Shown: one piece after another, positions 1,920-64,000 of the stretch
Position numbering within the stretch: the stretch's first letter is position 1
How the letters are laid out: every line of letters begins with the position of its first letter
Source of the DNA: Patescibacteria group bacterium
GTDB taxonomy: Bacteria > Patescibacteriota > Gracilibacteria > UBA4473
NCBI GenBank assembly: GCA_965660445.1
Contig: CBFIAK010000002.1
Span: forward strand, 8,235-72,234
Direction of reading: 5' to 3'
Length of the DNA: 64,000 nucleotides
The notes under the pieces: model-generated
Database searches by the model: none
What the model was told of the DNA's origin: nothing
Seen by the model: only the letters and a program-made list of their open reading frames with translations
Translations under genes and position numbers: made by a program

Positions 1920-1947
1920 ACGTTTCGCTTTAGAGGAGACAACTTAG

Positions 1948-1970
1948 AAACCGCCATTCTGCGGTTTTTT
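1948..1970 (+). terminator. Rho-independent terminator candidate
   Basis: Stem aaaccgc / gcggttt with loop cattct, followed by a T-run, 29 nt after the stop of the 24..1919 ORF. Confidence 0.6.
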
Positions 1971-2230
1971 GTTTTCTCCTCTATACGAAAAAGTGCTTAC
2001 TTTTTCGATACCTCTTTCCAATAAAGAGTTTGAGTGCTTCGAGCCCCACAAGACCCAAAGCGTACTCACACATATTTTATTTTTGAAATATATTCATTTC
2101 AAAATCAAAATCAGTTAAAAATTTGAGTTGGCTCCCTTGGGTGGTGCTGACTCAAATTTTTTCTTCTTAAAGGGAAAAGATAGGTATTGGAAAGAAAAAC
2201 CGAATGGTTTGTCTTTCCAAAAAAGAAGCG

Positions 2231-3454: not shown

Positions 3455-3610
3455 GGTTGTGTAAAAAAAATCAGTTTTATTGTAAGGAATTATTCAAAAG
3501 AAGTGTAGAGAATGCGTATTGTTTTGGTCTTTAAAATATGGTATAGTTTATGAGTAAAAGAAAACATCTTTTCTTTTGTGTGTTTGGTATGAAAATACAT
3601 TGAATTTCTT

Positions 3611-5188: not shown

Positions 5189-5198
5189 TTTTTTTTGT

Positions 5199-6239: not shown

Positions 6240-6252
6240 TTATTTTTTTCTC

Positions 6253-7113: not shown

Positions 7114-7193
7114 AGCGAAATTTCGTTCGTTCTCTTTTTTTCCTGAGAATGTTTTGTATACTGAAACAGATTCTATTCTAACGATTTATTTCT

Positions 7194-8063: not shown

Positions 8064-8068
8064 ATCTT

Positions 8069-32228: not shown

Positions 32229-33048
32229 ACAAAAGAAAAAAGCTTTTTCCCTTTTAGAACTCGTCATTGCTATGACGCTTTTTGCCGTTGTCTTTTTGAG
32301 TATTTTTTCTCTTGTGGGGCAAATGCAATTAACTCAGAAAAAACTTGATATTGCACATAATTTTTATGATGAATCTCGTTTGCTTATGGATAGAATGGTT
32401 GAGTTTGGTCGTTATTATGTGCTTGATTACGATCGGTATTTTTGTGAAGAAGATAATGTTGCTGAAGATTGTGATTCTCGGTATGAAGATGTATTTTATG
32501 ATGATATTGGTGGACGATTAAGGAATTTGGGAGGTATGGATAGAGAGTTTGAGCAATCAGATGTAGAGACAAATGCATTTGATGTTTCACAACAAGACGT
32601 ATTATTTTTACGGCATCCAGAGCGAAATGTTCGTATTGCTCTTCGAGTCGAAAGTGAACAAGTACAAGTACAATCTCAAGTTGGTGTTGATACAAATGAT
32701 GATGGACGTCTTGATGTATGGAGTGCTGAACCTCTTGTTTTACCCAATAAACAGTGCCGTATAGAAGGAATTGAATTCTCTGAAGATTTGTGTCGAGAAG
32801 CTTATGATTGGAAAACAATATCTCCATCACATGTTCGAGTTTTATCTTCTGTGTTTGAATTGTATCCTCAAAAAGACCCATATCTTGCGTTTGCTGATGA
32901 TGCAGTGCAATTGCAACCTGTTATTCGTATGGCGTTTAAATTTCAGTTTGATGAAGAAAATACTGGTTATGGGTTTTCACAGCAGGAAGTGCCAGAGATA
33001 CATTTACAAACCGCTGTCGTTTCGCGTATCCATGGAAATACTCGTTAA
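32218..33048 (+). CDS. Type IV pilin-like protein (pseudopilin 3, PilW/X-sized)
   Basis: MRIKQKKKA|FSLLELVIAMTLFAVVFL is a prepilin-type N-terminus. It overlaps the stop of the preceding gene. The start was trimmed to the ATG at 32218. Confidence 0.75.
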   Translation: MRIKQKKKAFSLLELVIAMTLFAVVFLSIFSLVGQMQLTQKKLDIAHNFYDESRLLMDRMVEFGRYYVLDYDRYFCEEDNVAEDCDSRYEDVFYDDIGGRLRNLGGMDREFEQSDVETNAFDVSQQDVLFLRHPERNVRIALRVESEQVQVQSQVGVDTNDDGRLDVWSAEPLVLPNKQCRIEGIEFSEDLCREAYDWKTISPSHVRVLSSVFELYPQKDPYLAFADDAVQLQPVIRMAFKFQFDEENTGYGFSQQEVPEIHLQTAVVSRIHGNTR

Positions 33049-34796: not shown

Positions 34797-34860
34797 TTTC
34801 TTTTAATGTACTCTTCTTTTTTCGTATTTGCATTTTTTTTTTGTTTTCGAGACAATAAGA

Positions 34861-37098
34861 ATGTTCATGAATCGTTTCATCTTTCTATTCCTCTTTTCGT
34901 TTTTTTCTCTTATTGCGCTTGAGTCACATGCCGACTTTGTTCGTGATTCAGGAATAGATCTTGATGCGTCTCAATTAGTGATTGATTTTACAGCTCCCGT
35001 GCTATTACCACATTTAGAAGGAGAATATCCAGCGTTTGAGTGTTTTGGGTTTTTTGAGTCTCCAGTGACCGTTTCTTTTCAGAGCATAGGCATGACCGAT
35101 CCGGATAATTTAACAGCGGTGTTACAAAACACAGCCAATGGAGGATGTTTTCGTCAAGCAGGAACATACGAACTTGATGTTTTTGTACAAGACAAAGCCG
35201 GAAACACAGCCTTTTCTTCTGTATTTCCAGTTGTGATTGAAGTACTTCCATCAGACCCACATCCATCACAAATCACCCATCATGTTACTTATGATGACAA
35301 CAATAAAGCCACTCCATCATTAGCCAATGATAGCGATAAAACAATTTATACTCTTATTTTGAAAGATTTTGCAGGAAACCCCGTGACTCAAATTGATGGA
35401 GATGATATTCAATTGCCGGCTGGATATGTGGTTGATACCAACGGTCAAACAGATGCAAATACAGGATTATCTTTTCTTGATGGATTTGCAAACCAAGAAG
35501 TGAATACAGATGCGGCATGGATTCAGTTATCGTTTAAAGCAAAAGCCCCAACTGTTGCCAAAGTAGGGGACCATTTGGCTCGGTTTACTGATGATTGGTC
35601 ATTGAGAATGTCGGATATACAAGTCGCTGATATCAATAGTGCGGGTGGGGTTGTGGGAGGCGTTTGGAACCCGGTTTCGGTAACCACTCCTGTGAGAGTT
35701 GCATTTCAACCACTTTTCACCCTTATTCCTAAAGCACTGGAAGACTCTGTAATGGGGGAAACACAAGATGCTATCTATATTCTTGACTCTGATTATGTTC
35801 ACCCTGAAGATCCTGATCCACCTACAGGAAGTAATAATGCCTCTCGTTTTTTCTTAGAATTGCAGTCCAAGGATTCCGGAATTTCTCTTAATTCATTTGC
35901 GGTTCGGAATGAGGATTCTTGGCTTAGTTATTATAATAATCTAGCAAGTAATAGTTTTTCTCCTTCTGTAGAACTTGATACGACCTTTTATGATTGGGGA
36001 TTGGCTGATCCTGAAGATGATGATTCATGGTCATATTATATTCAAAAAACGGCAGGGTTTGTGCGTGATATGAGTACAGAAAAATATCCGTTATCACTCG
36101 TTGTTGAAGGAAACTACAGTGTCGGAGGATCGCCTATTTCTTATCCAATGGGAGGAAGTGGGTTTCATGAAACCGATGTGCTGAACCCAGCAAATAATAA
36201 TCCGAATGATTTTATTGATTTAACAACTCGGAATGGAGGTGTTTCAGGAGCAGGAACACTTGGTTATAATTCGATTTCTGGTGGGTCTGTGCCACCATTA
36301 GGAGCTGATGTGGTGGGGGCAGTAAGAGGCGTGATTGATAGCCGAATGACATCATCGTCTTCAGTACTCGTATCTGGAACAGTTGGAGAAGATGCTCGTT
36401 CGATCTTGTATGATAATGCTCTTTCGCTTATTCGTGGTATAGAAGAATCATGTCTCAACCCCATAGAACAAGATAGAGCATTGCAAATATCAGTATTTGA
36501 CACTTGTGATGTGGTGGTCGTTAATGATGGAGGCGATGTGCGATTCGCTTCTGGATGGAATCAAGGTATTATGCTTCTTCCTGCAGGGCAAAAAACATTG
36601 ATTGTACAAAATGCAAATGTGATTATAGAAGGGAATATGATGTATGGGAATCCGAATGATGCGTTTGGTATTATGGCTATTAATACTCCGCTTCGTCCAT
36701 TTCCAGAAACAGGAAACATATTTGTGCGATCAGATATACAACAAATAGTTGGTCATTTATTTTTAGAAGGAGCATTTGTGAGTAATGATGGAGATAGTAT
36801 TTGGGATGCGAATACTGGAACTGACCAGAATCAATTGGTATTTCAGGGTACGTTCTTAACGCATAATACATTGGGAGGGAGTCGTATTACGCCTGTGAGA
36901 ACTCCATGGGAAAGAACAAATGATACATTGCAATTGGTTCCTGTAGAGATAGAGGATCAGCGATTATCTCAGATTTATGATTTGCACTGGGTAAGAACAG
37001 GGAATTCTATGCCGGTTCATCTTTCAAATCAAAACGCATTTGTACTTGAAGTCAAACCACCACTTATTTCTCCTCCTGGATTTGTGCATCAAGAATAG
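34861..37098 (+). CDS. Large secreted hypothetical protein
   Basis: About 745 aa. Signal peptide MFMNRFIFLFLFSFFSLIALESHA. No recognisable catalytic motif. The start was trimmed to the ATG at 34861. Confidence 0.6.
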   Translation: MFMNRFIFLFLFSFFSLIALESHADFVRDSGIDLDASQLVIDFTAPVLLPHLEGEYPAFECFGFFESPVTVSFQSIGMTDPDNLTAVLQNTANGGCFRQAGTYELDVFVQDKAGNTAFSSVFPVVIEVLPSDPHPSQITHHVTYDDNNKATPSLANDSDKTIYTLILKDFAGNPVTQIDGDDIQLPAGYVVDTNGQTDANTGLSFLDGFANQEVNTDAAWIQLSFKAKAPTVAKVGDHLARFTDDWSLRMSDIQVADINSAGGVVGGVWNPVSVTTPVRVAFQPLFTLIPKALEDSVMGETQDAIYILDSDYVHPEDPDPPTGSNNASRFFLELQSKDSGISLNSFAVRNEDSWLSYYNNLASNSFSPSVELDTTFYDWGLADPEDDDSWSYYIQKTAGFVRDMSTEKYPLSLVVEGNYSVGGSPISYPMGGSGFHETDVLNPANNNPNDFIDLTTRNGGVSGAGTLGYNSISGGSVPPLGADVVGAVRGVIDSRMTSSSSVLVSGTVGEDARSILYDNALSLIRGIEESCLNPIEQDRALQISVFDTCDVVVVNDGGDVRFASGWNQGIMLLPAGQKTLIVQNANVIIEGNMMYGNPNDAFGIMAINTPLRPFPETGNIFVRSDIQQIVGHLFLEGAFVSNDGDSIWDANTGTDQNQLVFQGTFLTHNTLGGSRITPVRTPWERTNDTLQLVPVEIEDQRLSQIYDLHWVRTGNSMPVHLSNQNAFVLEVKPPLISPPGFVHQE

Positions 37099-37158: not shown

Positions 37159-37860
37159 ATGTTGCGATTTGAATCAGTTTCGCTTTCATTTGATGAACAT
37201 CCCGTTTTGTCTGATGTTTCTTTTGTTATTCAACCCGGAGAAAAAGTAGGTATTATTGGTGCGTCTGGAGCAGGGAAGTCTTCCTTATTTAAGCTCCTTA
37301 TTGGAGAACTGCGGCCAACAACAGGATCAATTTATGTTGATGATATATCCTTGGGAGATTTATCTCTTTCTGGTATTCAAGAATATCGTCGTCATATCGG
37401 GGTGGTATTTCAGGATTTTCGTTTGTTACCTCAAAAGACAGTTTTTGAAAACTTATCGTTTGCGCTTGAGGTATGTGGTAAAGAAGATGATATACTTGAA
37501 AAAGCAGAAACACTTCTTTCGACCGTTGGTCTTTTAGATGCCTACAATCAGTTTCCCAACTCTCTTTCGGGAGGAGAACGCCAGAGACTTGCTATCGCTC
37601 GCGCGTTAATTCATGATCCACGAATTCTTATTGCCGATGAACCAACAGGAAATCTTGATCCTCAAAATGCAAAAGATATTGCGTATTTGTTCCGAAACCT
37701 TCATGAAGAAAAAGGATTAACCTGTATTTGTGCAACACATGATCCTCAATTTATTGATATATTAAGACCCCGTATTATACGAGTTGCAAACGGTACCATT
37801 CTTGCTGATGAACCGTATAACACAACTATTGAGGCCTTTGGCGACCTATTGCGTTTGTGA
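37159..37860 (+). CDS. ftsE: FtsE-like ABC transporter ATP-binding protein
   Basis: GASGAGKSSL (Walker A), LSGGERQRLAIARAL (ABC signature), ILIADEPTGNLD (Walker B). About 230 aa, typical for FtsE. The start was trimmed to the ATG at 37159. Confidence 0.8.
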   Translation: MLRFESVSLSFDEHPVLSDVSFVIQPGEKVGIIGASGAGKSSLFKLLIGELRPTTGSIYVDDISLGDLSLSGIQEYRRHIGVVFQDFRLLPQKTVFENLSFALEVCGKEDDILEKAETLLSTVGLLDAYNQFPNSLSGGERQRLAIARALIHDPRILIADEPTGNLDPQNAKDIAYLFRNLHEEKGLTCICATHDPQFIDILRPRIIRVANGTILADEPYNTTIEAFGDLLRL

Positions 37861-40089
37861 GTCGCTAATAGATTGGTTTATAAACTCAAGTCCTTCCGTA
37901 ATACTATAGTTTTGATTACTTTGTTTTTGTGCACGATTGAGGAGTATGGTTATATCGGATAGTTGTTCTGATTCTTTGTTGAATAAAAAATGTATTCTTG
38001 ATTCTCGGTGTATTACGTCTTGAATTTTAAATTGTGTGTATTCCCAGTTTGTAATTTCTATATGAGATTTATTGATTCGGAGTCCATATGCGTTAAAAAG
38101 TTGAATAATGTTATTTTTTACCTGTAGTGCTTGTTGAGTTTCTTGAGGAATTCGAATGTTTATTGAACTTGGTTCTGTTGACGAAGTATTCGTTTGATTA
38201 TTCCAAAATTTCTCGAGTATAAGTGGTTGAATAGTTTGTGCTCCACGAATATGAATGAGCGTGTTGTCTTCTTTTATATTCGTAAACACTTGAGATTTAT
38301 AATAAAACTGACCAGAAAGAGAAATTGTTCCTTTTTTGGCTTGTGAAAACTCAACTGATGGGTTTGCTCCATCGATTTCTTTTATTTGCATAGTATTTGT
38401 TTCCCATCCGTTTTTTTCTAAAAATGTAAAGAGATCATCAGTATTATTTATCCCTCCTATGTGCTTTGGAACAGTTTCTATTTGAGGAATGATCCGCTCA
38501 CCTCCTATTGTATAATTTTTTTGTTCTTCTTCTTGTTCTTTTATTCTTTGTATTGATTCTGTATTTATGTTTCCGTCTCCAATTTTTTTAATAATTTGGA
38601 TTATATCTCGTTCGGTTTGCGTAAAAATTGTAATTTTTAAATCAGCCTCAATAGAATCAATATTGAGTATTCTATATGACTGCATCAGCGTACTTAATGG
38701 AATGGTATGCATACGCGCGGCAATAGATTTTTCAATAAAAACCATGATGTCTTTTCCATTTTCAAGAATGAGTTCTTGTCTTTTTTCAAGATGATTTTCT
38801 GTGTCTAATTCTGTTTCAATAAGTATTTTATGAGTTTCAAATGTATCTTCGTTTTGTAATTGTGTATGGAGTTGAAGGTTTTCACTGAGCAGTCTTCGAA
38901 TCCGTGTGTATGTTTGAGTTGGAATGGTTTTCTTGAGTTGTGGGTTTGTTTCAATCATTTTTTTTATATTGATGATTGATTCTTTTGCTTCATTCCATTG
39001 TTTTTCAAAAATAAATACTTCTGCGGTGTTCCAGAGTGTCGATATATTTTCATCGCTATAAAAAAACATATACAGTTCGTTTGAAGGATTTAAACTAGCA
39101 CGCCAAAACTTATAGATATGTTGATACGTTTCCCACATATCCTTGTATTTGGGTAGATTATTCAGTGCATCTTTGAGTATAAGTTGGTTCTCTGTTGATT
39201 CAAACATTGATTTTTGTGTTTGTGCTGTTTCGAAATCTCCTTCTTGTAAGGCATTCAAGAATACAAAAAATGGTTTTATTGATTTGAAAAATGCATCTTC
39301 ATTTTTTTCTGATTGAGAGAGTCCTACCGCATTTTTTTGAAGTGATTGAATTGATTCAATGTTTTGTGAAATTGTTTGATAAAAAATTCCTTCTTTTGAT
39401 TGTTGTATGAACTCGGATACGAGGTTTCTTCGTTCTTGTATCCTTTTTTGAGTAGGTTGTGCAAGTGCTAAAAGTTCTGGTTCTGTTGTATTAGGACGCA
39501 GTCTTAATAACTTTTTTAGTTTTGAATAAAACAAAATACCCGTTCTCTCAGAAATAAACCGTTCATTTATGAGTACATTCATGCCCGAAGGAACAATAAA
39601 TGGTTCTTGTATACCATCAAATAAAAGCTCAATTGATTGTCCTTCATTGACAATAGAAATGCTGTGTTCTTGTTTTTGAATGACCAGCGTGCTTTTTGGG
39701 TTTCGTATTCGTATTTTTCCGACGAATATCTCGTTTTTTCCAATTGATGATTGTGACTGTAAAAATGGGAATGTATGGATGCTTTTTTCGGGGTTTGAAA
39801 AATATGTACTCCATATAAGTGTTCCGTTGTTGAGCATTCTTTCGTTTTGGTTCCAGTCAGTATTATTGTCGAGTTTCTCAAATAATTCTCCATTCGTATC
39901 CCATATTTCAGCAGGAAAACTTCCGCCATTTTCTTCAAATGTTTTCCATGTATCTCTTTCTGATTGTGTAAGAGACCAGATTTTGACTGTATTCAAATTT
40001 ATCGGCTTTTTGTCTTGCACTATAAAGAGGATGCTATAGAGGCATCCCACAATACAGGCAAGAATTTGAAGTGTTTTTGTTTTCATCAA
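37846..40089 (-). CDS. Large hypothetical protein with a single N-terminal TM anchor
   Basis: 747 aa. N-terminal LQILACIVGCLYSILFIV anchor, the rest predicted extracytoplasmic. No recognisable motif. Its 3' end overlaps ftsE convergently by 15 nt. Confidence 0.6.
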   Translation of the reverse strand: MMKTKTLQILACIVGCLYSILFIVQDKKPINLNTVKIWSLTQSERDTWKTFEENGGSFPAEIWDTNGELFEKLDNNTDWNQNERMLNNGTLIWSTYFSNPEKSIHTFPFLQSQSSIGKNEIFVGKIRIRNPKSTLVIQKQEHSISIVNEGQSIELLFDGIQEPFIVPSGMNVLINERFISERTGILFYSKLKKLLRLRPNTTEPELLALAQPTQKRIQERRNLVSEFIQQSKEGIFYQTISQNIESIQSLQKNAVGLSQSEKNEDAFFKSIKPFFVFLNALQEGDFETAQTQKSMFESTENQLILKDALNNLPKYKDMWETYQHIYKFWRASLNPSNELYMFFYSDENISTLWNTAEVFIFEKQWNEAKESIINIKKMIETNPQLKKTIPTQTYTRIRRLLSENLQLHTQLQNEDTFETHKILIETELDTENHLEKRQELILENGKDIMVFIEKSIAARMHTIPLSTLMQSYRILNIDSIEADLKITIFTQTERDIIQIIKKIGDGNINTESIQRIKEQEEEQKNYTIGGERIIPQIETVPKHIGGINNTDDLFTFLEKNGWETNTMQIKEIDGANPSVEFSQAKKGTISLSGQFYYKSQVFTNIKEDNTLIHIRGAQTIQPLILEKFWNNQTNTSSTEPSSINIRIPQETQQALQVKNNIIQLFNAYGLRINKSHIEITNWEYTQFKIQDVIHRESRIHFLFNKESEQLSDITILLNRAQKQSNQNYSITEGLEFINQSISDSQTQ

Positions 40090-46458: not shown

Positions 46459-48543
46459 CTACTCTTGTGATTCGGCTCGTCGGCGAAGTATTTCTTCTGG
46501 GTTACTGGTAATGATTCGGTCTTCTCCAAAACTTGCAATAATTTCAATAGCAACGTGTTGATTTCCAGCAAAGAAAAGCCCTTGTCCGACGGTTGAGTTT
46601 AAGAGGAGATATTTCTCTCCATCAGTGAGATTAAATACTTTTTTAAGTCTCTCAATAGCAACAGGGGCTTGCCTGAGAAGGAGTTGCATTGAAGAGTTTG
46701 TAATGATTGGTTTCCCCCATTTACTGTCTAAGAAATCTTCTACGTCTTGCGTGATAGTTGTAATTCCTAAGTAGTATTTCCGTGCTCGTTTAGTCAGATT
46801 ATGTAAAAATCGTCCAGAGTCTTCATATTGCACCATGTGCCATGCCTCATCAATAGCGAGTATCCGTTTTCGTAAATCAGATCGTACGCGGTTCCAAATA
46901 AAATTCAGAAGCATGTACATCGCAATCGGACGAAGTTGCTCTTCTAAATCACGAATACAAAAGACAATGAGTCCAGAATTTAAATCAACATTTGTTACAT
47001 CAGAAAAAAGTCCTGAAAATGTTCCTTTGGTGTATTTTTCCAGTCTTATGGCAAGATTTTTTGAACCATCAAGGGAATGGAGAACGTCTTCAAGATCAAC
47101 CATGGTCGGCATTTCGTATTCCCATGGGTTTTCAGTTTGAAGTGTGATTCCTTTGAGTTCATAGGTTTGTAAAATGGCTTTATCCATTAAGGCTTCTTCT
47201 TCAGGGGTGAGTTTTCCAAGCATGATATTAAGAAGCCCTAAAAGATTGATAGTGTTTTCTTTGATGAGTTCTCCTGGACGAATATCGTCTTTATCAATAG
47301 GAAGGGGAAGATCAAACGGATTGATTCGGTGATTTGATGTGAGCGAAATATGAACATAACTTCCACCAACTGTTTTTGCGAGTTCTTCGTATTCGTTTTC
47401 TGGATCAAGAACAATAACATCGGTTCCCATCATGAGAGACCGAAGAATTTCGAGTTTTACGGCATATGATTTACCAGCCCCAGATTTCGCAAATACAACT
47501 GCATTTGCATTTTCTAAATCAAATCGGTCAAAGATAATAAGAGAATTGTTATGTCGATTAATACCATACAAAATTCCACTATCAGTTGTAAGATCGTTTG
47601 ATACAAAAGGAAATGTTGTTGAAAGAGGAGAAGTGTTCATGTTGCGTGTTACCTCTAGCAGATCAACGCCTTGTGGAGTTGTTGATGTAAATCCTCGTTC
47701 CGTTCGAAAATCACTACTTCGAGTCATAACCAACTGTCCTCCAAGTATGGTTTCGATTTGTTTACTGGTTTCTTTTAGTTTTTCGTCTGATTCAGCATAA
47801 ACGGTTAAATACATTCCCACATGAAAAAATTTTTCCATACCACGTTGTAAATCGATTCGTAACTGTTGTGCATCTTCAAGTGCCGTATCTAAGGATGTAC
47901 TGTTTATTTTTCCTTGTTTTTCGTTTATGTGTTTTGTTGAAATCATTTCTACCACTTTTCGTCGCAGAACTTTCATAATTTTCGCGGAATCACGAGGATA
48001 CACAAAAAGCGATAAATCAAATGTTGCATCAAAGTTTATAATCGGATTAAGCCAGTTTGCTTCTAGATATCGTGGGTAGTTGTATACATAATATGTTCGT
48101 GCGTGAGCACTATTTATTTGAATACTATTCGTAGAAATCTCCATAGAAGATGGAGCGATAAGGTCTTTGACGGATATAATCCCTTCTCTATATTTTTTTT
48201 CTGATTCAATGATGCGTTTTCGCATTTCATTGGTCAGTTTTTTCTTGTCTCGTTTTGGATCAAAATTTTCAAAAAAGGCATCTAAGTCACCCATTTCTTT
48301 TTCTTTTTTTTCGTTTTCAGCTTTTTCGTTCTCAGCCTCTTCTTCTTTATCGGTTCCCCATTTTTTTCTTATTTTCTCAGCAATACCATACCCAAAAGTT
48401 CCTTTTTTCTCTTTACTGGCTATGACAATATCTTTTGTTTCTTTTTCTTCAGTTCCGTTATTCGGTTTGGTATTGTCTGTATCCACTTGAGGGGGGAGTG
48501 GTTGGTTGCTCTGAGATGTTGTTGTTTTTTGTTCTTCACTCAT
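46459..48543 (-). CDS. VirB4/TrbE/TraC-like type IV secretion ATPase
   Basis: VVFAKSGAGKSYAVK (Walker A) followed by VIVLDPENEY (compare the VirB4 DPKGEY motif), and RILAIDEAWHMV (Walker B). The N-terminal ~110 aa are a K/E-rich low-complexity extension. Confidence 0.75.
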   Translation of the reverse strand: MSEEQKTTTSQSNQPLPPQVDTDNTKPNNGTEEKETKDIVIASKEKKGTFGYGIAEKIRKKWGTDKEEEAENEKAENEKKEKEMGDLDAFFENFDPKRDKKKLTNEMRKRIIESEKKYREGIISVKDLIAPSSMEISTNSIQINSAHARTYYVYNYPRYLEANWLNPIINFDATFDLSLFVYPRDSAKIMKVLRRKVVEMISTKHINEKQGKINSTSLDTALEDAQQLRIDLQRGMEKFFHVGMYLTVYAESDEKLKETSKQIETILGGQLVMTRSSDFRTERGFTSTTPQGVDLLEVTRNMNTSPLSTTFPFVSNDLTTDSGILYGINRHNNSLIIFDRFDLENANAVVFAKSGAGKSYAVKLEILRSLMMGTDVIVLDPENEYEELAKTVGGSYVHISLTSNHRINPFDLPLPIDKDDIRPGELIKENTINLLGLLNIMLGKLTPEEEALMDKAILQTYELKGITLQTENPWEYEMPTMVDLEDVLHSLDGSKNLAIRLEKYTKGTFSGLFSDVTNVDLNSGLIVFCIRDLEEQLRPIAMYMLLNFIWNRVRSDLRKRILAIDEAWHMVQYEDSGRFLHNLTKRARKYYLGITTITQDVEDFLDSKWGKPIITNSSMQLLLRQAPVAIERLKKVFNLTDGEKYLLLNSTVGQGLFFAGNQHVAIEIIASFGEDRIITSNPEEILRRRAESQE

Positions 48544-57049: not shown

Positions 57050-58033
57050 ATGACTATTGTGAAAAAACGTATTCTTGTTTTCGTTATGGCGGTTGCTTTT
57101 ATGAATGTTTTTTGGATTCCGATTGCGTTTCCTCAAGCACCAAATCCGAACGTATCGCGTCCAACACTTTCAAAACCAACAGAACGAACAACGAACCAAC
57201 TTCCACTTTTAGGTGAAGATCGGTACGATTCTATTATAAAACGGAACATTGTGAAAGACATTGTTGATGTGTCGCAAGGTCAATCAAGTGAGTCGATTAT
57301 TCGAACGTTGTTTCAACGGCGTGAAGGAGCGAGATCACCTATTGTTATTGCAAATGTGCTTTTCGGTGTTGCGGCTTTAATTTTTCTTATTTCTATTGGG
57401 GCTCGTTTTATTTTTGCAGATGGAAATGAGGAATCATTAAAAACGGCAAAGTTACATTTTGCGTATCTTGTTCTTGGTTTAGCTATTATTTCTCTTGCTG
57501 AGTTCGTTGCCTTTACTCTTATAGATCCTATCAATGAGAGTTCTCAACCGATGTTAACATCTGGAAATACAGCTTCTGCATTAGGTGAAAAGGCAGAGCA
57601 AATTATTGATTACGTACAGATTCTCATTACAGGAGTCATGCTCCTGCTTTTGTCTATTTCTGGGTATAGTCTTATTGCTTCCGGTGATGAAGGGGAGAAG
57701 CGATTAGAAGACGAAAAAAACTTTTTAAAAACCTTCTTTTTTGGGGCAGCATTGATTTTGCTTTCTGAATCGATTGCACTTATTGCGAGTGATCGACATC
57801 CGCAGAATGCTATTTTTAAAGCACAAAACGAAATACTCGGGTTTGTGAATTATGCTTTATCTTTTGTAGCGGTGACGTGTTTTGTGATGTTGATTCTTGC
57901 TTCGTTTTATTTTGTGACCAGTCTTGGAAATGATGATCAGATGCAACGAGCAAAGAAAATAATTCTGTCGTGTGTACTTGGTATTATTGTCGCCATTTCT
58001 AGTTATACTATTGCTAGCTTTATGATTCGATGA
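57050..58033 (+). CDS. Membrane protein made of three tandem VirB2/TrbC-like pilin modules
   Basis: Signal peptide followed by three copies of TM - (S/A).G(N/D)(E/D)... (A)K..I....G - TM, for example FYFVTSLGNDDQMQRAKKIILSCVLGIIVAISSYTI. Confidence 0.6.
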   Translation: MTIVKKRILVFVMAVAFMNVFWIPIAFPQAPNPNVSRPTLSKPTERTTNQLPLLGEDRYDSIIKRNIVKDIVDVSQGQSSESIIRTLFQRREGARSPIVIANVLFGVAALIFLISIGARFIFADGNEESLKTAKLHFAYLVLGLAIISLAEFVAFTLIDPINESSQPMLTSGNTASALGEKAEQIIDYVQILITGVMLLLLSISGYSLIASGDEGEKRLEDEKNFLKTFFFGAALILLSESIALIASDRHPQNAIFKAQNEILGFVNYALSFVAVTCFVMLILASFYFVTSLGNDDQMQRAKKIILSCVLGIIVAISSYTIASFMIR

Positions 58034-59058
58034 AAACATTTCTGATTTCCGGTTTTGTGGCTGTTGTTTTTTTTCTCTCACTTCCTGTATTTGCTCAGTC
58101 ACAACGGAGCACTTTAGATATTTTTTCAAATAATCCTTCTACACAAGATTTATATACAAAGTATAGCCCTTTGCATGACTATACACCTGAGGTTTTGTAC
58201 GGAGAGAACAAGTTTCGAGGGATTCTTTTTGTGGTTCAAGATTTTGCGTATGGAATTTTTATTCCTATTGCTATTTTATTAACCGTTTGGGCTGGAATTC
58301 AATTGATTTTTTCTCGCGGGTCGGAAGATACGTTTACAGAAAAAAAGACACAATTTATTGGTGTTTTTTTAGGATTCGCGGTTTTACTTCTTTCAAGGGT
58401 TATTGTCGATGATGTTTTTTTTGGAATTGATTTTGATGATGGATTTTGGGGACTGAGACAGGTCGGTGACTATTTTGGGTTTACCAATGAAGAAAACCGA
58501 ATGATTGTTGATGCAGGGCAAATATTTAACGATTCTGATTCTGCTTCTTTTGCAAAAAGCGGGTTTCGACAACTCGAAGGAATATTTAATTATTTAATTA
58601 CTTTTGCTGCAGGGGTATCGGTGTTATTTGTTATTTATGCTTCCTATAGAATGATTACAGCAGATAATGACGATACACTTTCAAAAGCTCGAAACCAGAT
58701 TTTATATGTGTTGGGAGGTATGGCACTGCTTATTTCTGCACGTCGAATTATTGGACTTTTTCGTCGAGAAAGTCAGTCGAAAATTGGATTAGATGGGTTA
58801 TTTAATGATGGAGGTTTATCGCTGCCAAAAGTTTCTCCAACGACAGATCTTGTTATTCAATGGACTAATTTTGCACTGAGTTTTATTGGTATTGTGGCTG
58901 TTGTAGGACTTGTTTATGGAGGAATTCAGCTGATTACGAGTTTAGGGGAAAGTGATGAAGCGCAACAAAATGCAAAAAAGATTGTTATTGCTTCTATTGC
59001 TGGTTTAGTGCTTTCTATATCAGCATGGACAATTATTTATTATTTCATCAACATTTAG
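58030..59058 (+). CDS. Membrane protein made of three tandem VirB2/TrbC-like pilin modules (paralogue)
   Basis: ATGA overlap with the upstream gene and the same three-module layout, for example GIQLITSLGESDEAQQNAKKIVIASIAGLVLSISAWTI. Confidence 0.6.
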   Translation: MKTFLISGFVAVVFFLSLPVFAQSQRSTLDIFSNNPSTQDLYTKYSPLHDYTPEVLYGENKFRGILFVVQDFAYGIFIPIAILLTVWAGIQLIFSRGSEDTFTEKKTQFIGVFLGFAVLLLSRVIVDDVFFGIDFDDGFWGLRQVGDYFGFTNEENRMIVDAGQIFNDSDSASFAKSGFRQLEGIFNYLITFAAGVSVLFVIYASYRMITADNDDTLSKARNQILYVLGGMALLISARRIIGLFRRESQSKIGLDGLFNDGGLSLPKVSPTTDLVIQWTNFALSFIGIVAVVGLVYGGIQLITSLGESDEAQQNAKKIVIASIAGLVLSISAWTIIYYFINI

Positions 59059-60419: not shown

Positions 60420-62126
60420 TTACCCCTTAATCACTCGCAATACTTCTTCCATAGTGGTTGTTCCGTTTAATACTTTTCGGTATCCATCTTCGAACATTGT
60501 TTGCATTCCGTTTTCAATTGATTGTTGTTTTATTTTATCGGCATCGGATCCTTCCATGATAAGTTTTCGTATTGAGTTGTCCATTTTCAGGATTTCAAAT
60601 ACCCCAACTCGTCCATGGTATCCAGTTCCATGACAGAGTTTACACCCATCACCTTTAAAGAGGGTTATTTTATCTTTTTTACTTTTTCGGTCTTTTTCAA
60701 ATCGTTCGATAGCCTCAAGTGGAAGCGAGATTTTCATTTCTTCAGGTGTTGTTTCATAACTATAAATACATTTTGGACATATCTTTCGAACCAACCGTTG
60801 TGCCACAACAATAGCAATGGTTGATGAAATTAAGAACGGTTCAACACCCATATCAAGTAACCGTGGAATAGAAGTTGCCGCATCGTTTGTATGCAGAGTC
60901 GAGAGTACCAAGTGCCCCGTCATCGCGGAGTTAACGGCGATATTTGCGGTTTCAGGGTCTCGGATTTCCCCCACCATTATGATATCCGGATCTTGCCGTA
61001 CTAACGCTCGGAGTCCTGTGGCAAAGGTAAGATTTCCTTTTGGGTTGGTTTGAATTTGCGTAATTCCTTCGATATTCCGTTCTACGGGATCTTCAATGGT
61101 AGCGATATTTACGTCTCGTACGTTTAACACTTTCAAGAACGAATAAAGCGATGTCGTTTTCCCAGATCCCGTTGGTCCGGTTACGAGTATAAGCCCCCAA
61201 GGGTTTTTAATAGCTTCATAGGCTTTATCAAGATCTGCTTTGTCGAGATCCATCGATTCTATAGAGAAACTATTGGATTTATCACTTAAGTACCGCATAA
61301 CGACGTTTTCACCTCCGATTGTTGGTACCATAGATACCCGGATATCAAACTGTTCGTCTTCAAACGCATATCGAATTTTACCGTCTTGCGGTGATTGGTG
61401 TTCATCGGTTCGCAGTCGTGCCATTACTTTAATACGGGCGATAATACTCCCATGAATTTGTTTTGGCATTTCTAAGATATCGTTCATGATACCGTCAATA
61501 CGAAATCGCACAATACTGTAATCTGGTTGTGGTTCAATATGGATATCTGATGCTCCAAATTCGTATCCACGATCGAGGAGCATATCTACAATTTCAATGA
61601 TAAAGTTTCCATCACTTCCGTCGTCTTTCTTTTTGTTTTGTTCGAGTTCTTCTTGTGCTTTTTGAAAAATTTCCTCGAATTCTTTTTTAATATCAGATTT
61701 ATAGAGATAGTAATGGTCAGAGAGATCTTTTTCTGATGCATAATGCACGACTATTTTCTTTTTAAACTTTTTTTCAAGAGTATGGACAAGTGTTACGTTT
61801 TCTGGGTTTGTTGTTGCAACAAGAATCTCATTGTCGTCTTCTGCAAACGCAATAATTTGCTTGCTTCGCGCCATACTTTCCGGAATTTTCTTCATAACCG
61901 CCTGATCAATACCTTCGTTTGCTAATACAATAAACTTCCACCCATTGGCTTCCGCAATAATACGAGAAAGATGATCAAGCTTGATAAGTTCTCTTTCTAC
62001 AAGGATATCTTCAAGCATTTTTTGGTCTTTCGCAACCTTGAGAACGTCATCAATATCTTCTTGTGATACAAAATCTCCTAATACTAAGAAGTCGACGACT
62101 TGCTGATTTATTTTTGATTGTTTCAT
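60420..62126 (-). CDS. pilB: Type IV pilus assembly ATPase PilB (GspE family)
   Basis: N-terminal GSPII_E_N-like domain, VTGPTGSGKTTSLYS (Walker A), IMVGEIRD (Walker B), STLHTNDA, and a tetracysteine motif CPKC...CKLCHGTGYHGRVGVFE. Confidence 0.92.
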   Translation of the reverse strand: MKQSKINQQVVDFLVLGDFVSQEDIDDVLKVAKDQKMLEDILVERELIKLDHLSRIIAEANGWKFIVLANEGIDQAVMKKIPESMARSKQIIAFAEDDNEILVATTNPENVTLVHTLEKKFKKKIVVHYASEKDLSDHYYLYKSDIKKEFEEIFQKAQEELEQNKKKDDGSDGNFIIEIVDMLLDRGYEFGASDIHIEPQPDYSIVRFRIDGIMNDILEMPKQIHGSIIARIKVMARLRTDEHQSPQDGKIRYAFEDEQFDIRVSMVPTIGGENVVMRYLSDKSNSFSIESMDLDKADLDKAYEAIKNPWGLILVTGPTGSGKTTSLYSFLKVLNVRDVNIATIEDPVERNIEGITQIQTNPKGNLTFATGLRALVRQDPDIIMVGEIRDPETANIAVNSAMTGHLVLSTLHTNDAATSIPRLLDMGVEPFLISSTIAIVVAQRLVRKICPKCIYSYETTPEEMKISLPLEAIERFEKDRKSKKDKITLFKGDGCKLCHGTGYHGRVGVFEILKMDNSIRKLIMEGSDADKIKQQSIENGMQTMFEDGYRKVLNGTTTMEEVLRVIKG

Positions 62127-62280: not shown

Positions 62281-62358
62281 GGGATCGTAGCTCAGTTGGT
62301 TTAGAGCGCCGCCCTGTCACGGCGGAGGTCGCGGGTTCGAGTCCCGTCGGTCCCGCCA
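62281..62358 (+). tRNA. tRNA-Asp (anticodon GUC), CCA encoded
   Basis: GGGATCG-TA-GCTC-AGTTGGTTTA-GAGC-G-CCGCC-CTGTCAC-GGCGG-AGGTC-GCGGG-TTCGAGT-CCCGT-CGGTCCC-G-CCA. Confidence 0.92.
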
Positions 62359-62402
62359 GATATACTTTTAAAAAAAAGAATCTGGTGAAAACAGTATATA
62401 GG

Positions 62403-62434
62403 AAAAAACCATATCATGCGATGTGGTTTTTTTT
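62403..62434 (+). terminator. Rho-independent terminator after tRNA-Asp
   Basis: aaaaaaccatatc-atgc-gatgtggtttttttt, with one G.U pair in the stem. Confidence 0.6.
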
Positions 62435-62577
62435 GATACTAAAAAAAGGACGGATTTTTTGACACATTTCGCAAATTTTCATAGAGTTTTCACGTATTAA
62501 GACGAGAGAGGATCCGGACGGTGTTAGTGCCTAAGGAGCCTTTTTCATGTATAAATCGTTTTTTTTAAGTCGTTAAA

Positions 62578-63324
62578 ATCTACAAAAGTAGAAATTTAAT
62601 GGTGAAATTAAACAAATCCGAACCCAAAAAGCCAATTGATTCTATCTACAAAAGTAGAAATTTAATGGTGAAATTAAACCAAAAGAAAGAGTTACTATTA
62701 GAATCTGATCTACAAAAGTAGAAATTTAATGGTGAAATTAAACCCAACTTGTTTTTGGTGTTTGGTACGCCTATCTACAAAAGTAGAAATTTAATGGTGA
62801 AATTAAACTTGGAACAGGAGGTTGCAGACTTCGTTATCTACAAAAGTAGAAATTTAATGGTGAAATTAAACAATAATATGACAAATAATATAAATAACAT
62901 ATCTACAAAAGTAGAAATTTAATGGTGAAATTAAACCTCCAACACCCTTGCAGGACGAGACTCATCTACAAAAGTAGAAATTTAATGGTGAAATTAAACT
63001 AAAAAGTACAAAATCATTATACCTATATAATCTACAAAAGTAGAAATTTAATGGTGAAATTAAACACCGTATCCCCCTCCTTCGCTAATACTGATCTACA
63101 AAAGTAGAAATTTAATGGTGAAATTAAACTCATAAGTATAAGCATTTGATTCGCTTGTATCTACAAAAGTAGAAATTTAATGGTGAAATTAAACGGAGAA
63201 GATTTAATATGTATGTCAAACAGATCTACAAAAGTAGAAATTTAATGGTGAAATTAAACGAATATTACTATTATGATGAACAACAATTATCTACAAAAGT
63301 AGAAATTTAATGGTGAAATTAAAC
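62578..63324 (-). CRISPR. CRISPR array with 12 identical 36-bp repeats and 11 spacers (27-30 nt); repeat is type V-A (Cas12a) type
   Basis: Repeat on the + strand is atctacaaaagtagaaatttaatggtgaaattaaac. Repeat starts: 62578, 62644, 62708, 62773, 62836, 62901, 62964, 63030, 63094, 63159, 63224, 63289. The reverse complement GTTTAATTTCACCATTAAATTTCTACTTTTGTAGAT ends in the UCUAC-UUUU-GUAGA-U handle. The transcribed strand was inferred from this handle and from the cas2 orientation. Confidence 0.97.
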
Positions 63325-63500
63325 CCTTAAAATCTGATAGCAAAGCCAAAAGATACAAACAGTATCTTTTTGAGTGACCGCGACTTTTGGCTTTGTTATC
63401 ATGTCTTCGAAAAATAAAGACTTAGGTTTGCTTGTTGTGTTAATTTCCTCACAGAAACTTATACCTTTGTGTGAATTAATGGAATGGGAAAGATCAAACG
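63325..63500 (-). promoter_or_regulatory. Putative CRISPR leader (between the cas2 stop and the first repeat)
   Basis: 176-bp AT-rich non-coding stretch upstream of the array in the inferred transcription direction. It contains a 17-bp inverted repeat (63336-63352 and 63384-63400). Confidence 0.6.
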
Positions 63501-63779
63501 TTACAAAAATAGTATATCATCATCCATATTTTTTGCATAGCCGAACTTCATTATTTTATCAGTTGATTTGTTTGATAGCCTGATAATCATAACACTATCG
63601 ATTCCTGAAAAATGTTTTTTGTATCGTTTTTCTATTTCAGCAGTTATAAGGTTCAAAATTCTATCGCTATTTTTTATTTCATAGACTGAATATTGTAGGC
63701 GATATCCAAATTTTTTTAAAAAACTAGAAAACCGAGTTCTTACTTTGTCGTTAGAGATATCATAAGTTATGAGAAGCAT
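63501..63779 (-). CDS. cas2: CRISPR-associated endoribonuclease Cas2
   Basis: 92 aa. MLLITYDISNDKVRTRFSSFLKKFGYRLQYSVYE is the canonical Cas2 N-terminal beta-strand with Asp, plus the LQ.SV(Y/F)E motif. It is immediately adjacent to the array. Confidence 0.92.
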   Translation of the reverse strand: MLLITYDISNDKVRTRFSSFLKKFGYRLQYSVYEIKNSDRILNLITAEIEKRYKKHFSGIDSVMIIRLSNKSTDKIMKFGYAKNMDDDILFL

Positions 63780-63781
63780 TT

Positions 63782-64000
63782 TTATTGTGGTTTATAGCAT
63801 TGAAATTCTAGAGATTCTTTCATAGAAGCTCTGTAATATTCTTGTATATATTTAAATATTTCAGATTTTTCTTTGAGTATAGCTTTGAAGAATATACTCG
63901 TATATTTTGTTCCTTTTTCGTATTTCAAAATATATTGTCCTTTTTGTATTTCGAAATCATTTTCATCTACCTGTTTTAGATTAAATGCTTTGAGTAATTC
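63782..64000 (-). CDS. cas1: 3' end of a cas gene, probably cas1 (truncated by the window edge)
   Basis: My own translation of the minus strand from nt 64000 gives an open frame: ELLKAFNLKQVDENDFEIQKGQYILKYEKGTKYTSIFFKAILKEKSEIFKYIQEYYRASMKESLEFQCYKPQ*. The stop is at 63782-63784, 2 nt before the cas2 ATG. The pattern ..DF....G.Y.L...G.K.F...F resembles Cas1 C-termini, and its position upstream of cas2 fits cas1. Confidence 0.5.
   Translation of the reverse strand, partial: ELLKAFNLKQVDENDFEIQKGQYILKYEKGTKYTSIFFKAILKEKSEIFKYIQEYYRASMKESLEFQCYKPQ

What the first reader, a model, noticed from the sequence alone, without database searches (positions are those of the whole stretch)
62578..64000. 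Cas12a-type (type V-A) CRISPR locus whose effector lies just outside the window
The sequence shows 12 perfectly identical 36-bp repeats with 27-30-nt spacers. Read on the minus strand, the repeat is GTTTAATTTCACCATTAAATTTCTACTTTTGTAGAT. Its last 19-20 nt (AAUUUCUACUUUUGUAGAU) match the conserved 5' handle of Cas12a crRNAs. The Fn, As and Lb Cas12a repeats all end in UAAUUUCUACU-N3-5-GUAGAU. That orientation places the array downstream of cas2 (63501..63779) and of an ORF open to nt 64000, which fits the canonical cas12a-cas4-cas1-cas2-array order. The host looks like a CPR-type reduced genome. CRISPR systems are uncommon in such genomes, although Cas12a orthologues have been reported from Parcubacteria and Peregrinibacteria bins. 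The effector could be a known or a divergent Cas12a; only the neighbouring sequence can tell.
Basis: partly seen in the sequence, partly recalled or inferred. Interest (0 to 1): 0.7.

Follow-up and report, generated by a model that had tools for sequence, protein, structure and literature searches.

The report
Cas12a-family CRISPR locus with two effectors
The repeats are a real CRISPR array of the Cas12a family in a candidate-phyla-radiation bacterium, but just beyond the window the cas12a gene carries a premature stop codon and an intact second nuclease, a compact Cas12a3 (an RNA-triggered RNA-cutting enzyme first described in 2026), probably uses the array instead.

Summary
There are 12 identical 36-nt repeats at 62578-63324 with 11 spacers of 27-30 nt. 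cas2 lies at 63501-63779, and the ORF open to nt 64000 is the 3' end of cas1. A public contig (L001) is identical on both flanks of the array and extends the locus. It reads tRNA-Arg, cas12a, an inverted 1049-aa gene, cas4, cas1, cas2, array, tRNA-Asp.

- **cas12a is interrupted.** A single in-frame TAG sits at codon 79 of 1277, where all 21 nearest homologues have Tyr. Gene calls from two sources, NCBI and Logan, carry the same break.
- **The inverted gene is an intact Cas12a3.** It is 59% identical to ca3Cas12a3 of Dmytrenko et al. 2026. Its model superposes on Ba1Cas12a3 with TM 0.75. The RuvC triad, zinc ribbon and PFS-contact residues are conserved. The tRNA-loading domain is replaced by about 39 residues.

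Solo relatives of this Cas12a3 carry mini-arrays with the identical 19-nt handle. The array therefore most likely guides Cas12a3. By analogy with the domain-less RoiCas12a3, it would be triggered by RNA and cut RNA, both the target and bystander RNA. No protospacers were found.

This is a new member of a known kind and of moderate interest.

The parts
62578..63324 (-). CRISPR array: 12 identical 36-nt repeats and 11 spacers of 27-30 nt. The crRNA sense is the minus strand, and each repeat ends ...AAUUUCUACUUUUGUAGAU.
   Evidence: Searches give coordinates, identity and spacer lengths. One search gives the hairpin. In about 27 related loci with a detected array the array reads ...TCTACTNTTGTAGAT on the strand of the adjacent cas12a3-type gene (in most, also that of cas4-cas1-cas2); only L018 and L021 are reversed.
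63325..63500 (-). Putative leader: a 176-nt A+T-rich stretch between the cas2 stop codon and the first repeat. Its role as promoter and integration site is inferred from position only.
   Evidence: sequence. The sigma-70 scan gives no convincing minus-strand promoter here, and promoter-like sites in the region are no more frequent than in shuffled sequence.
63501..63779 (-). cas2 (92 aa).
   Evidence: PF09827 E 9.8e-15. TIGR01573 45 bits against a cut-off of 24.5.
63782..64000 (-). 3' end (72 codons) of type V cas1. The gene continues beyond the window. Coordinates extrapolated as window = 72793 - L001 position: cas1 63782-64738 (-); cas4 64745-65293 (-); cas12a3 65404-68553 (+); cas12a 68588-72421 (-) with the in-frame TAG at 72185-72187; tRNA-Arg(TCT) 72554-72628 (-).
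   Evidence: L001 was fetched with the Cas2 protein and is identical to the window on both array flanks. Family matches are (TIGR04329, TIGR04328, TIGR04330).
62281..62358 (+). tRNA-Asp(GTC). It marks the trailer-side edge of the roughly 10-kb, low-GC CRISPR-Cas island. The other edge is tRNA-Arg in L001.
   Evidence: The cas region has 28.3% GC against 36.8% for the window.

Best explanation
This is a composite type V-A-family CRISPR-Cas island of about 10 kb. It has lower GC than its surroundings and sits between two tRNA genes in a standard-code CPR (Gracilibacteria/Peregrinibacteria-type) genome. The gene order is cas12a, inverted cas12a3, cas4, cas1, cas2, and a 12-repeat array.

The proposed mechanism runs as follows.

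1. The array is transcribed from the cas2 side on the window minus strand (inferred).
2. The effector's own WED-domain RNase cuts the pre-crRNA. This leaves the 19-nt handle AAUUUCUACUUUUGUAGAU in front of a guide of about 23 nt. This step is inferred from Cas12a and BaCas12a3.
3. cas12a carries a Tyr-to-amber nonsense codon at position 79 of 1277, so it probably makes no functional protein. The intact 1049-aa Cas12a3 is then the working effector.
4. Guided by the crRNA, Cas12a3 recognises a complementary invader transcript flanked 3' by an A-rich PFS. That PFS is the complement of the T-rich PAM that Cas4-Cas1-Cas2 select during spacer acquisition.
5. Recognition opens the RuvC site. The protein lacks the tRNA-loading domain, so it most likely cuts the target RNA and bystander RNAs, tRNAs included. 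The expected outcome is growth arrest or abortive infection rather than clean CCA-tail trimming.

What is shown here: the array, the gene content, the stop codon, clade membership, the fold and the conserved residues. What is inferred: transcription, crRNA loading, RNA targeting and the substrate range.
For: **Array and adaptation genes:**

**Extension of the window:** L001 is identical on both flanks of the array.

**cas12a and its stop codon:**
- One continuous 1277-codon frame holds a single TAG at L001 606-608.
- Both fragments (78 aa and 1074 aa) are on record from the NCBI 140,866-bp contig and from Logan.
- All 21 nearest Cas12a proteins have Tyr at that column.
- Homologues of 1265-1300 aa cover 100% of the reconstructed protein.
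- TAG ends 15 of 44 long ORFs in the window, and no suppressor tRNA is seen.

**Cas12a3 identity:**
- PDB sequence hits are only Ba1Cas12a3 and BaCas12a3, at E 2e-71 and 1e-68.
- It is 59% identical to P0008, which matches the N-terminal region of the paper's ca3Cas12a3 shown.
- BLAST gives ca1, Ba4, Bd and Ba1 Cas12a3 at E 1e-100 to 1e-69, Cas12a2 at 5e-16, and Cas12a4 not significant.
- An NJ tree places it inside Cas12a3.
- The AlphaFold2 model has pLDDT 87 and pTM 0.78. Foldseek gives TM 0.75 to 9hlx, 0.47 to Cas12a2 and about 0.33 to Cas12a.

**Conserved residues:**
- D690, E914, D1030 and zinc-ribbon cysteines C984, C987 and C1010 are invariant in 47 homologues (C1005 completes the CxxC...CxxxxC motif in this protein).
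- The PFS-contact pattern Y224, S427, T429, K435 matches Y218, S469, T471, K477 of BaCas12a3.

**Use of the same repeat:** the solo relatives L003, L004 and L006 carry mini-arrays ending in the identical AATTTCTACTTTTGTAGAT.

**Missing tRNA-loading domain:**
- HMMER and BLAST leave Ba1 residues 846/847-938/960 opposite only 37-39 residues here.
- The tRLD-less RoiCas12a3 cleaves target ssRNA and shows strong collateral RNA cleavage (PMC13594972).
- BaCas12a3 crRNAs are a 19-nt repeat tag plus a spacer of about 23 nt.
Against: - No transcript, crRNA or activity data exist for this locus.
- No protospacer was found. Eight spacers were searched in viral contigs, one spacer and the full repeat in metagenome contigs, and all 11 spacers against the window and fetched loci. 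Neither the PAM/PFS nor the target strand could be checked.
- The TAG comes from metagenome assemblies that may share the same reads. A minority intact allele or a consensus error cannot be excluded.
- This subclade is only 30-33% identical to any Cas12a3 that has been tested (Ba1, Sm3, ca23, Roi), so its substrate preference is extrapolated.
- cas12a3 is inverted relative to the other cas genes, and no promoter is demonstrated for it.
- The sigma-70 scan shows no clear leader promoter.
Confidence: 0.62

Rival explanations
1. Both effectors work. The TAG is an assembly or consensus artefact, or a minority allele. The array then feeds a DNA-cutting Cas12a and an RNA-triggered Cas12a3 in parallel, as proposed for loci that hold Cas12a together with Cas12a2 or Cas12a3.
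For: Apart from the single TAG, the cas12a frame is intact over 1277 codons, with RuvC motifs present (IGVDRGE, VLEDLN, NGDENGAYNIA) and all Pfam domains. cas12a next to a cas12a3-type gene, cas4, cas1 and cas2 is common among related loci (at least 12 of 43), and the literature reports it (PMC13594972).
Against: The same break appears in the gene calls of two sources, NCBI and Logan. TAG is a normal stop codon here (15 of 44 long ORFs). No intact allele above 71% identity exists among 5.8 billion proteins. The next in-frame start codon is 124 codons downstream, so re-initiation would drop the WED-I strand and half of REC1.
Confidence: 0.22
2. Cas12a3 here is a tRNA-tail specialist like Ba1Cas12a3. 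On RNA recognition it trims the 3' CCA ends of tRNAs and spares the target RNA.
For: It belongs to the Cas12a3 clade and has the same fold. Three tested orthologues (Ba1, Sm3, ca23) cleave tRNA tails (PMC12851939).
Against: [quoted passage not shown] The REC2 T-arm loop residues R251, N253 and K257 are not conserved in the HMMER alignment. Deleting the tRLD substantially reduced Ba1Cas12a3 reporter silencing and RNA cleavage and abolished BaCas12a3 tRNA cleavage, and the natural tRLD-less RoiCas12a3 behaves differently.
Confidence: 0.15
3. The whole locus is a decaying relic. The array is no longer expressed or used, and cas12a is only the first gene to break.
For: cas12a has a nonsense codon. 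No spacer matches any searched sequence. The island has a foreign GC content.
Against: All 12 repeats are 100% identical. cas12a3, cas4, cas1 and cas2 are full length and score above curated cut-offs. The Cas12a3 catalytic and zinc-binding residues are intact.
Confidence: 0.08

Closest known systems
Type V-A CRISPR-Cas (Cas12a/Cpf1), e.g. FnCas12a, and CPR Cas12a such as the Peregrinibacteria protein P0194
   Same: The repeat is 36 nt and ends in the AAUUUCUACU-N-GUAGAU hairpin handle. Spacers are 27-30 nt. The order cas12a ... cas4-cas1-cas2-array is kept, with type-V-specific Cas4 and Cas1. The Cas12a sequence scores 807 bits against TIGR04330, E 1e-166 against FnCas12a structures, and is 71% identical to a Peregrinibacteria Cas12a.
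   Different: The cas12a ORF is cut by a TAG at codon 79 (Tyr in all 21 nearest homologues). A second, inverted effector gene lies between cas12a and cas4.
Cas12a3 (Dmytrenko et al., Nature 2026, PMC12851939; Li et al., NAR 2026, PMC13594972), structures 9hlx/9hm4 and 21we/21wj
   Same: It belongs to the same clade: 59% identical to ca3Cas12a3 and 28-33% to Ba1, Ba4, Bd and ca1. It has the same fold (TM 0.75), the RuvC triad, a zinc ribbon instead of a Nuc domain, conserved PFS-contact residues, and the same Cas12a-type crRNA handle. It is associated with cas4-cas1-cas2 and with cas12a.
   Different: At 1049 aa it is near the short end of the clade's 1011-1337 aa range. It lacks the roughly 106-aa tRNA-loading domain and the T-arm loop residues of Ba1. 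It belongs to a Patescibacteria subclade (P0002-P0021, 52-70% identity) of which no member has been assayed. The gene is inverted relative to the adaptation module.
RoiCas12a3 (Roizmanbacteria, tRLD-less; PMC13594972)
   Same: It comes from a CPR host, lacks the tRLD, and has a similar length across the tRLD region (91 aa here against 98 aa in the related ca1Cas12a3). It is therefore the best functional analogue: target ssRNA cleavage plus strong collateral RNA cleavage.
   Different: It is only about 32-33% identical to the Roizmanbacteria-type (L014, ca1-like) proteins and sits in a different subclade of the NJ tree.
Cas12a2 (SuCas12a2, 8d49/8d4a)
   Same: It is an RNA-triggered type V-A relative that shares crRNAs with Cas12a and has a zinc ribbon.
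   Different: It is much more distant: BLAST gives 73 bits against 241-332 bits for Cas12a3, no phmmer hit at E<=1, and TM 0.47. The Cas12a3 clade lacks the aromatic clamp used for dsDNA shredding (PMC12851939).

Membership tests
Type V-A CRISPR-Cas locus | CRISPR repeat whose 3' end forms the Cas12a 5'-handle hairpin (UCUAC-loop-GUAGAU), with the array downstream of cas2 on the same strand | tested here: met
   The same handle and orientation occur in about 27 related loci (all but L018 and L021).
Type V-A CRISPR-Cas locus | Cas12a effector: REC1, REC2, PI, split RuvC and Nuc domains, no HNH | tested here: met
   TIGR04330 807 bits against a cut-off of 300. PF18501, PF21918, PF22222, PF18516 and PF18510 all match. 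PDB FnCas12a E 1e-166.
Type V-A CRISPR-Cas locus | Effector gene intact (uninterrupted ORF) | tested here: not met
   An in-frame TAG sits at codon 79 of 1277, present in both the NCBI and Logan gene calls. All 21 nearest homologues have Tyr there.
Type V-A CRISPR-Cas locus | Type-V-specific adaptation module cas4-cas1-cas2 | tested here: met
   TIGR04328 200 bits (cut-off 70), TIGR04329 339 bits (cut-off 300), TIGR01573 45 bits (cut-off 24.5).
Type V-A CRISPR-Cas locus | No tracrRNA; effector processes its own pre-crRNA | not testable with these tools
   This needs small-RNA-seq or biochemistry.
Cas12a3 | Falls in the Cas12a3 clade, distinct from Cas12a, Cas12a2 and Cas12a4 | tested here: met
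   59% identical to P0008, which matches the paper's ca3Cas12a3. BLAST against paper sequences gives Cas12a3 at 1e-69 to 1e-100, Cas12a2 at 5e-16, and ApCas12a4 not significant. NJ tree. Only one Cas12a4 and one Cas12a2 reference were used, and the tree is distance-based.
Cas12a3 | Cas12a3 fold: bilobed, RuvC plus zinc ribbon, no Nuc/TNB domain | tested here: met
   The model has pLDDT 87. Foldseek top hits are 9hlx and 21we at TM 0.75-0.76 and E 2.5e-48. The CxxC...CxxxxC motif lies at residues 984-1010.
Cas12a3 | RuvC catalytic triad (Ba1 D712, E1032, D1137) | tested here: met
   D690, E914 and D1030 are invariant in 47 homologues.
Cas12a3 | PFS-contact residues (BaCas12a3 Y218, S469, T471, K477) | tested here: met
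   Y224, S427, T429 and K435 have identical spacing and are invariant or nearly invariant. The correspondence rests on motif and spacing, not on a structural superposition.
Cas12a3, tRNA-tail-specific subgroup (Ba1/BaCas12a3 type) | tRNA-loading domain (Ba1 residues 855-960, with K881, K885, R902, Y922, N924) | tested here: not met
   HMMER and BLAST leave Ba1 846/847-938/960 opposite only 37-39 residues. The segment Ba1 820-985 is 166 aa against 91 aa here. Only about 35% of Cas12a3 proteins have this domain.
Cas12a3 | RNA-triggered RNA or tRNA cleavage with no DNA cleavage | not testable with these tools
   This needs biochemistry or a plasmid-interference assay.
Cas12a2 | Close sequence and fold similarity to SuCas12a2, with aromatic clamp | tested here: not met
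   There is no phmmer hit to 8d49 at E<=1. BLAST to Ba3Cas12a2 gives 73 bits. TM is 0.38-0.48.

The most novel reading that the evidence does not exclude
This may be a natural effector hand-over caught in progress. In this CPR lineage the DNA-cutting Cas12a has just been lost to a single nonsense mutation, so a shared Cas12a-type array and adaptation module now serve only a compact, tRLD-less Cas12a3. That protein belongs to an unassayed Patescibacteria subclade, which also occurs as solo genes with 3-5-repeat mini-arrays. Its RNA substrate preference may differ from both Ba1 (CCA tails) and Roi (target plus collateral RNA).
Probability: 0.3. Interest if true: 0.6.

Novelty: new member of a known kind. 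Interest (0 to 1): 0.45.

Why it matters
The locus adds a well-defined example from the candidate phyla radiation to the recently described Cas12a3 family. It includes adaptation genes, a 12-repeat array and a genomic setting. The Cas12a3 here is one of the more compact members at 1049 aa and lacks the tRNA-loading domain.

If the nonsense codon in cas12a is real, the locus shows how a shared array can pass from a DNA-cutting effector to an RNA-triggered one that arrests growth. That bears on how episymbiotic CPR bacteria defend themselves.

The subclade is an obvious candidate for biochemical testing as a small RNA-guided RNase. Neither Pfam nor NCBIfam (June 2026) recognises this protein, so automated annotation will label such loci as plain V-A or miss the working effector.

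Tried and rejected
- **Alternative genetic code (TGA as Gly, as in Gracilibacteria and SR1) as the cause of the split cas12a.** Rejected. The stop is TAG, not TGA. Long ORFs such as LepA and the P-type ATPase are intact under table 11. TAG ends 15 of 44 long ORFs.
- **Assembly artefact as the cause of the stop.** Made less likely because the same two fragments are on record from the NCBI and Logan assemblies. Not excluded.
- **Cas12a4 or Cas12a2 identity for the 1049-aa protein.** Rejected by BLAST, the tree and the fold search.
- **Protospacer search.** 22-nt seeds of 8 spacers in viral contigs, 24 nt of the newest spacer and the full repeat in metagenome contigs, and all 11 spacers with up to 6 mismatches against the window and 45 loci gave no hits. 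PAM/PFS and target strand remain untested.
- **Retrieving the 140,866-bp NCBI contig.** Only the 9.8-kb Logan contig could be fetched. The genome-contig scan did not contain the source genome; the best hit was 74% identical.
- **Rfam.** It returned only tRNAs and two sub-threshold chance hits in the region.
- **Promoter scan of the leader.** Uninformative: 10 sites found against 9.7 expected.
Full report
**1. The observation**

The window ends in a textbook CRISPR array. An exact search finds 12 copies of the 36-mer ATCTACAAAAGTAGAAATTTAATGGTGAAATTAAAC between 62578 and 63324. All are identical, and they are separated by 11 unique spacers of 27-30 nt. No degenerate copies occur elsewhere in the 64 kb.

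On the minus strand the repeat reads GTTTAATTTCACCATTAAATTTCTACTTTTGTAGAT. Its last 15 nt form the UCUAC/GUAGA hairpin (MFE -5.6 kcal/mol, z = -3.7).

The ORF at 63501-63779 (-) is Cas2 (PF09827, E 1e-14; TIGR01573). The frame open to nt 64000 is the C-terminus of a Cas1 protein.

**2. Extending the window**

An exact look-up of the Cas2 protein returned one public contig, L001 (Logan assembly of ERR15116713, 9761 nt). [quoted passage not shown]

- It is identical to the window over the 712 nt from window 64000 down to the first repeat.
- It is identical again on the far side of the array, through the tRNA-Asp gene.
- Its assembler collapsed the 12 repeats into one.

The conversion between coordinates is window = 72793 - L001 position. 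All five cas products of L001 are also on record from an NCBI contig of 140,866 bp, which is presumably the source of the window.

L001 reads as follows:

| Feature | L001 coordinates | Strand in L001 |
|---|---|---|
| tRNA-Arg(TCT) | 165-239 | + |
| cas12a | 372-4205 | + |
| 1049-aa ORF (cas12a3) | 4240-7389 | - |
| cas4 (TIGR04328, 200 bits) | 7500-8048 | + |
| cas1 (TIGR04329, 339 bits) | 8055-9011 | + |
| cas2 | 9014-9292 | + |
| leader, then repeat | after 9292 | + |

The cas region has 28.3% GC against 36.8% for the window, and it is bracketed by two tRNA genes. It therefore looks like an acquired island.

**3. cas12a is there, but broken**

The gene callers report two products, of 78 aa and 1074 aa. 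Translating L001 372-4202 in one frame gives a continuous 1277-residue Cas12a with a single stop, TAG at 606-608.

- The 1074-aa part scores 807 bits against TIGR04330 (cut-off 300). It has the REC1, REC2, PI, RuvC and NUC Pfam domains and matches FnCas12a structures at E 1e-166.
- Full-length homologues of 1265-1300 aa cover 100% of the reconstructed protein. The closest is 71% identical and is labelled Candidatus Peregrinibacteria.
- In an alignment with the 21 nearest homologues, every one has Tyr at the TAG column, in the motif G-Y-[LF]-E-[IL]-F-K-K-W-K. The lesion is therefore a single TAY-to-TAG change.
- It is not a recoding signal. The codon is TAG, not TGA. TAG terminates 15 of 44 long ORFs in the window. 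Large conserved genes such as LepA and a P-type ATPase are intact under table 11. No suppressor tRNA is seen.
- The next in-frame start codon lies 124 codons downstream. Any re-initiated product would lack the N-terminal WED strand and half of REC1.
- Both fragments are recorded from NCBI and from Logan gene calls. The stop is therefore present in the gene calls of two sources, although these may rest on the same reads.

**4. The second effector is a Cas12a3**

The inverted 1049-aa ORF has no Pfam or NCBIfam match. Its N-terminus (KTIRFSLEP) and C-terminus (DSDKVASYNIAKRG, preceded by CxxC...CxxxxC) look like a Cas12 protein with a zinc ribbon.

- *Solved structures.* Against all PDB sequences it hits only Ba1Cas12a3 (9hlx, E 2e-71) and BaCas12a3 (21we, E 1e-68). 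These are the two recently solved RNA-triggered tRNA-cleaving nucleases (PMC12851939 and PMC13594972).
- *Homologues.* A search of 5.8 billion proteins gives 62 homologues. A tight group of about 20 is 52-70% identical, 1037-1136 aa long, and labelled 'Patescibacteria group bacterium' wherever a name exists.
- *Link to the published set.* One of them, P0008 (59% identical), shares the N-terminal sequence shown for 'ca3Cas12a3' in the Nature paper's sequence file; P0028 (37%) likewise matches 'ca22Cas12a3'.
- *BLAST against paper sequences.* ca1Cas12a3 scores 332+96 bits, Ba4Cas12a3 315, BdCas12a3 276+90 and Ba1Cas12a3 241+91. Ba3Cas12a2 scores only 73 bits, and ApCas12a4 is not significant.
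- *Tree.* An NJ tree places the protein inside Cas12a3, with ApCas12a4 outside.
- *Fold.* An AlphaFold2 model built from 47 homologues (pLDDT 87, pTM 0.78) superposes best on the Ba1Cas12a3 and BaCas12a3 binary complexes (TM 0.75-0.76). Cas12a2 follows at up to 0.48, and Cas12a at about 0.33.
- *Conserved residues.* The RuvC triad (D690, E914, D1030) and zinc-ribbon cysteines C984, C987 and C1010 are invariant across the family (C1005 completes the CxxC...CxxxxC motif in this protein). The PFS-contact pattern Y224, S427, T429, K435 reproduces BaCas12a3 Y218, S469, T471, K477 with identical spacing.

**5. What it lacks**

The hallmark of the characterised enzymes is the tRNA-loading domain (tRLD, Ba1 residues 855-960), which clamps the CCA tail. 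HMMER and BLAST both stop at Ba1 residue 845/846 and resume at 939/961. That leaves only 37-39 residues here opposite 93-114 residues in Ba1.

In a MAFFT alignment, the segment Ba1 820-985 is 166 aa long. It is 91 aa here and 87-107 aa in most other clade members, including the paper's own Ba4, Bd and ca1. The T-arm loop residues R251, N253 and K257 are not conserved in the HMMER alignment either.

This agrees with Li et al. They report that only about 35% of Cas12a3 proteins carry the domain. They also report that a tRLD-less Roizmanbacteria orthologue (RoiCas12a3) cleaves its target ssRNA, has strong collateral RNase activity, and degrades tRNAs in a different pattern. The present protein is only about 30-33% identical to any assayed orthologue, so its exact substrate range is inferred.

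**6. Does Cas12a3 use this array?**

A scan of one genome per species gave 43 related loci.

- At least twelve of them have cas12a, a cas12a3-type gene, cas4, cas1, cas2 and an array on one strand.
- The closest relatives (L003-L008, 43-74% identical) are solo genes with no cas12a or adaptation genes within 10 kb. L003, L004 and L006 carry 3-5-repeat mini-arrays directly downstream, and their repeats end in exactly the same 19 nt, AATTTCTACTTTTGTAGAT.
- The L004 context is housekeeping genes (MurJ, LepA, RecJ), not a phage.
- In the ca3Cas12a3 locus the gene lies downstream of a cas12a-cas4-cas1-cas2 module.

This subclade therefore reads the very handle present in the window's array. BaCas12a3 crRNAs are a 19-nt repeat tag plus a spacer of about 23 nt. 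The purine-rich PFS of Cas12a2, Cas12a3 and Cas12a4 is the complement of the Cas12a PAM, so one adaptation module can serve both effectors.

**7. Host**

The window uses the standard genetic code. Its LepA is 75-78% identical to proteins labelled Candidatus Gracilibacteria or Peribacteria. The Cas12a and Cas12a3 neighbours are labelled Peregrinibacteria or Patescibacteria. No rRNA is in the window.

**8. Verdict**

The finding is real, and the type V-A call and the predicted upstream genes are correct. The fuller picture is a dual-effector island in which cas12a carries a fresh nonsense mutation. An intact, compact, tRLD-less Cas12a3 is the probable user of the array.

Co-occurrence of Cas12a3 with Cas12a, and tRLD-less Cas12a3 proteins in CPR bacteria, are both already in the 2026 literature. 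This is therefore a new member of a known kind, not a new system.

What remains open:

- whether the stop codon is fixed in the population;
- whether the array is expressed;
- what the spacers target (none of the searches found a protospacer);
- what this subclade cleaves.

Noticed in passing
L001 372-9292 compared with the whole window; window 62281-62358; L001 165-239: The CRISPR-Cas island has 28.3% GC against 36.8% for the window. It is bracketed by tRNA-Arg(TCT) and tRNA-Asp(GTC), which suggests horizontal acquisition at a tRNA-rich site.
   Followed up: partly
L003 13340-13506; L004 13334-13607; L006 13339-13487: The closest relatives of this Cas12a3 are solo genes without cas1, cas2, cas4 or cas12a within 10 kb. 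Each is followed by a mini-array of 3-5 repeats with the identical 19-nt handle. The L004 neighbourhood is chromosomal housekeeping genes. How these mini-arrays acquire spacers is unclear.
   Followed up: partly
JGI 3300075153 contig of 184,026 bp (no DNA held): In the ca3Cas12a3 (P0008) locus, cas12a3 lies about 2.3 kb downstream of cas12a-cas4-cas1-cas2, probably beyond the array. The position and orientation of cas12a3 relative to the V-A module therefore vary within this subclade.
   Followed up: no
L001 9469-9504 compared with window 62578-63324: The Logan assembly collapsed the 12-repeat array into a single repeat joined directly to the trailer flank. This is a caution against using such contigs to count spacers.
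   Followed up: yes
L003, L005, L007, L008 (record titles): Contigs that carry Patescibacteria-type cas12a3 genes are titled 'uncultured Gammaproteobacteria' or 'Micavibrio' MAGs. They may be mis-binned or mislabelled.
   Followed up: no
window 46462-48543 (-); 33048-34796 (-), 34828-37095 (+), 37849-40089 (-): There is a VirB4-like conjugal-transfer ATPase (NF045971, E 1e-114). Three large neighbouring ORFs of 583, 756 and 747 aa have no NCBIfam match. This may be a type IV secretion or pilus-like cluster of the kind common in CPR genomes.
   Followed up: no
window 57050-58033 (+) and 58030-59058 (+): Two adjacent, overlapping ORFs of 327 and 342 aa have similar multi-pass hydrophobic architecture. 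They lie near a PilB/GspE-type ATPase at 60420-62126 (TIGR02533, E 1e-158). They were not analysed further.
   Followed up: no
P0037 compared with P0068; L012 2731-6345: Cas12a3-type and Cas12a genes from Altimarinota and Vampirococcus (Absconditabacteria) contain in-frame TGA codons, translated as Gly or Trp in different sources or shown as '*'. These are code-25 hosts, unlike the window's host.
   Followed up: no
window 62320-62448 (-) and 63268-63340 (+): There are sub-threshold Rfam hits: HPnc0260 at 42.5 bits against a gathering score of 59, and snoRNA sn2841 at 21 bits against 45. They overlap the tRNA-Asp flank and the array and are judged to be chance matches.
   Followed up: yes
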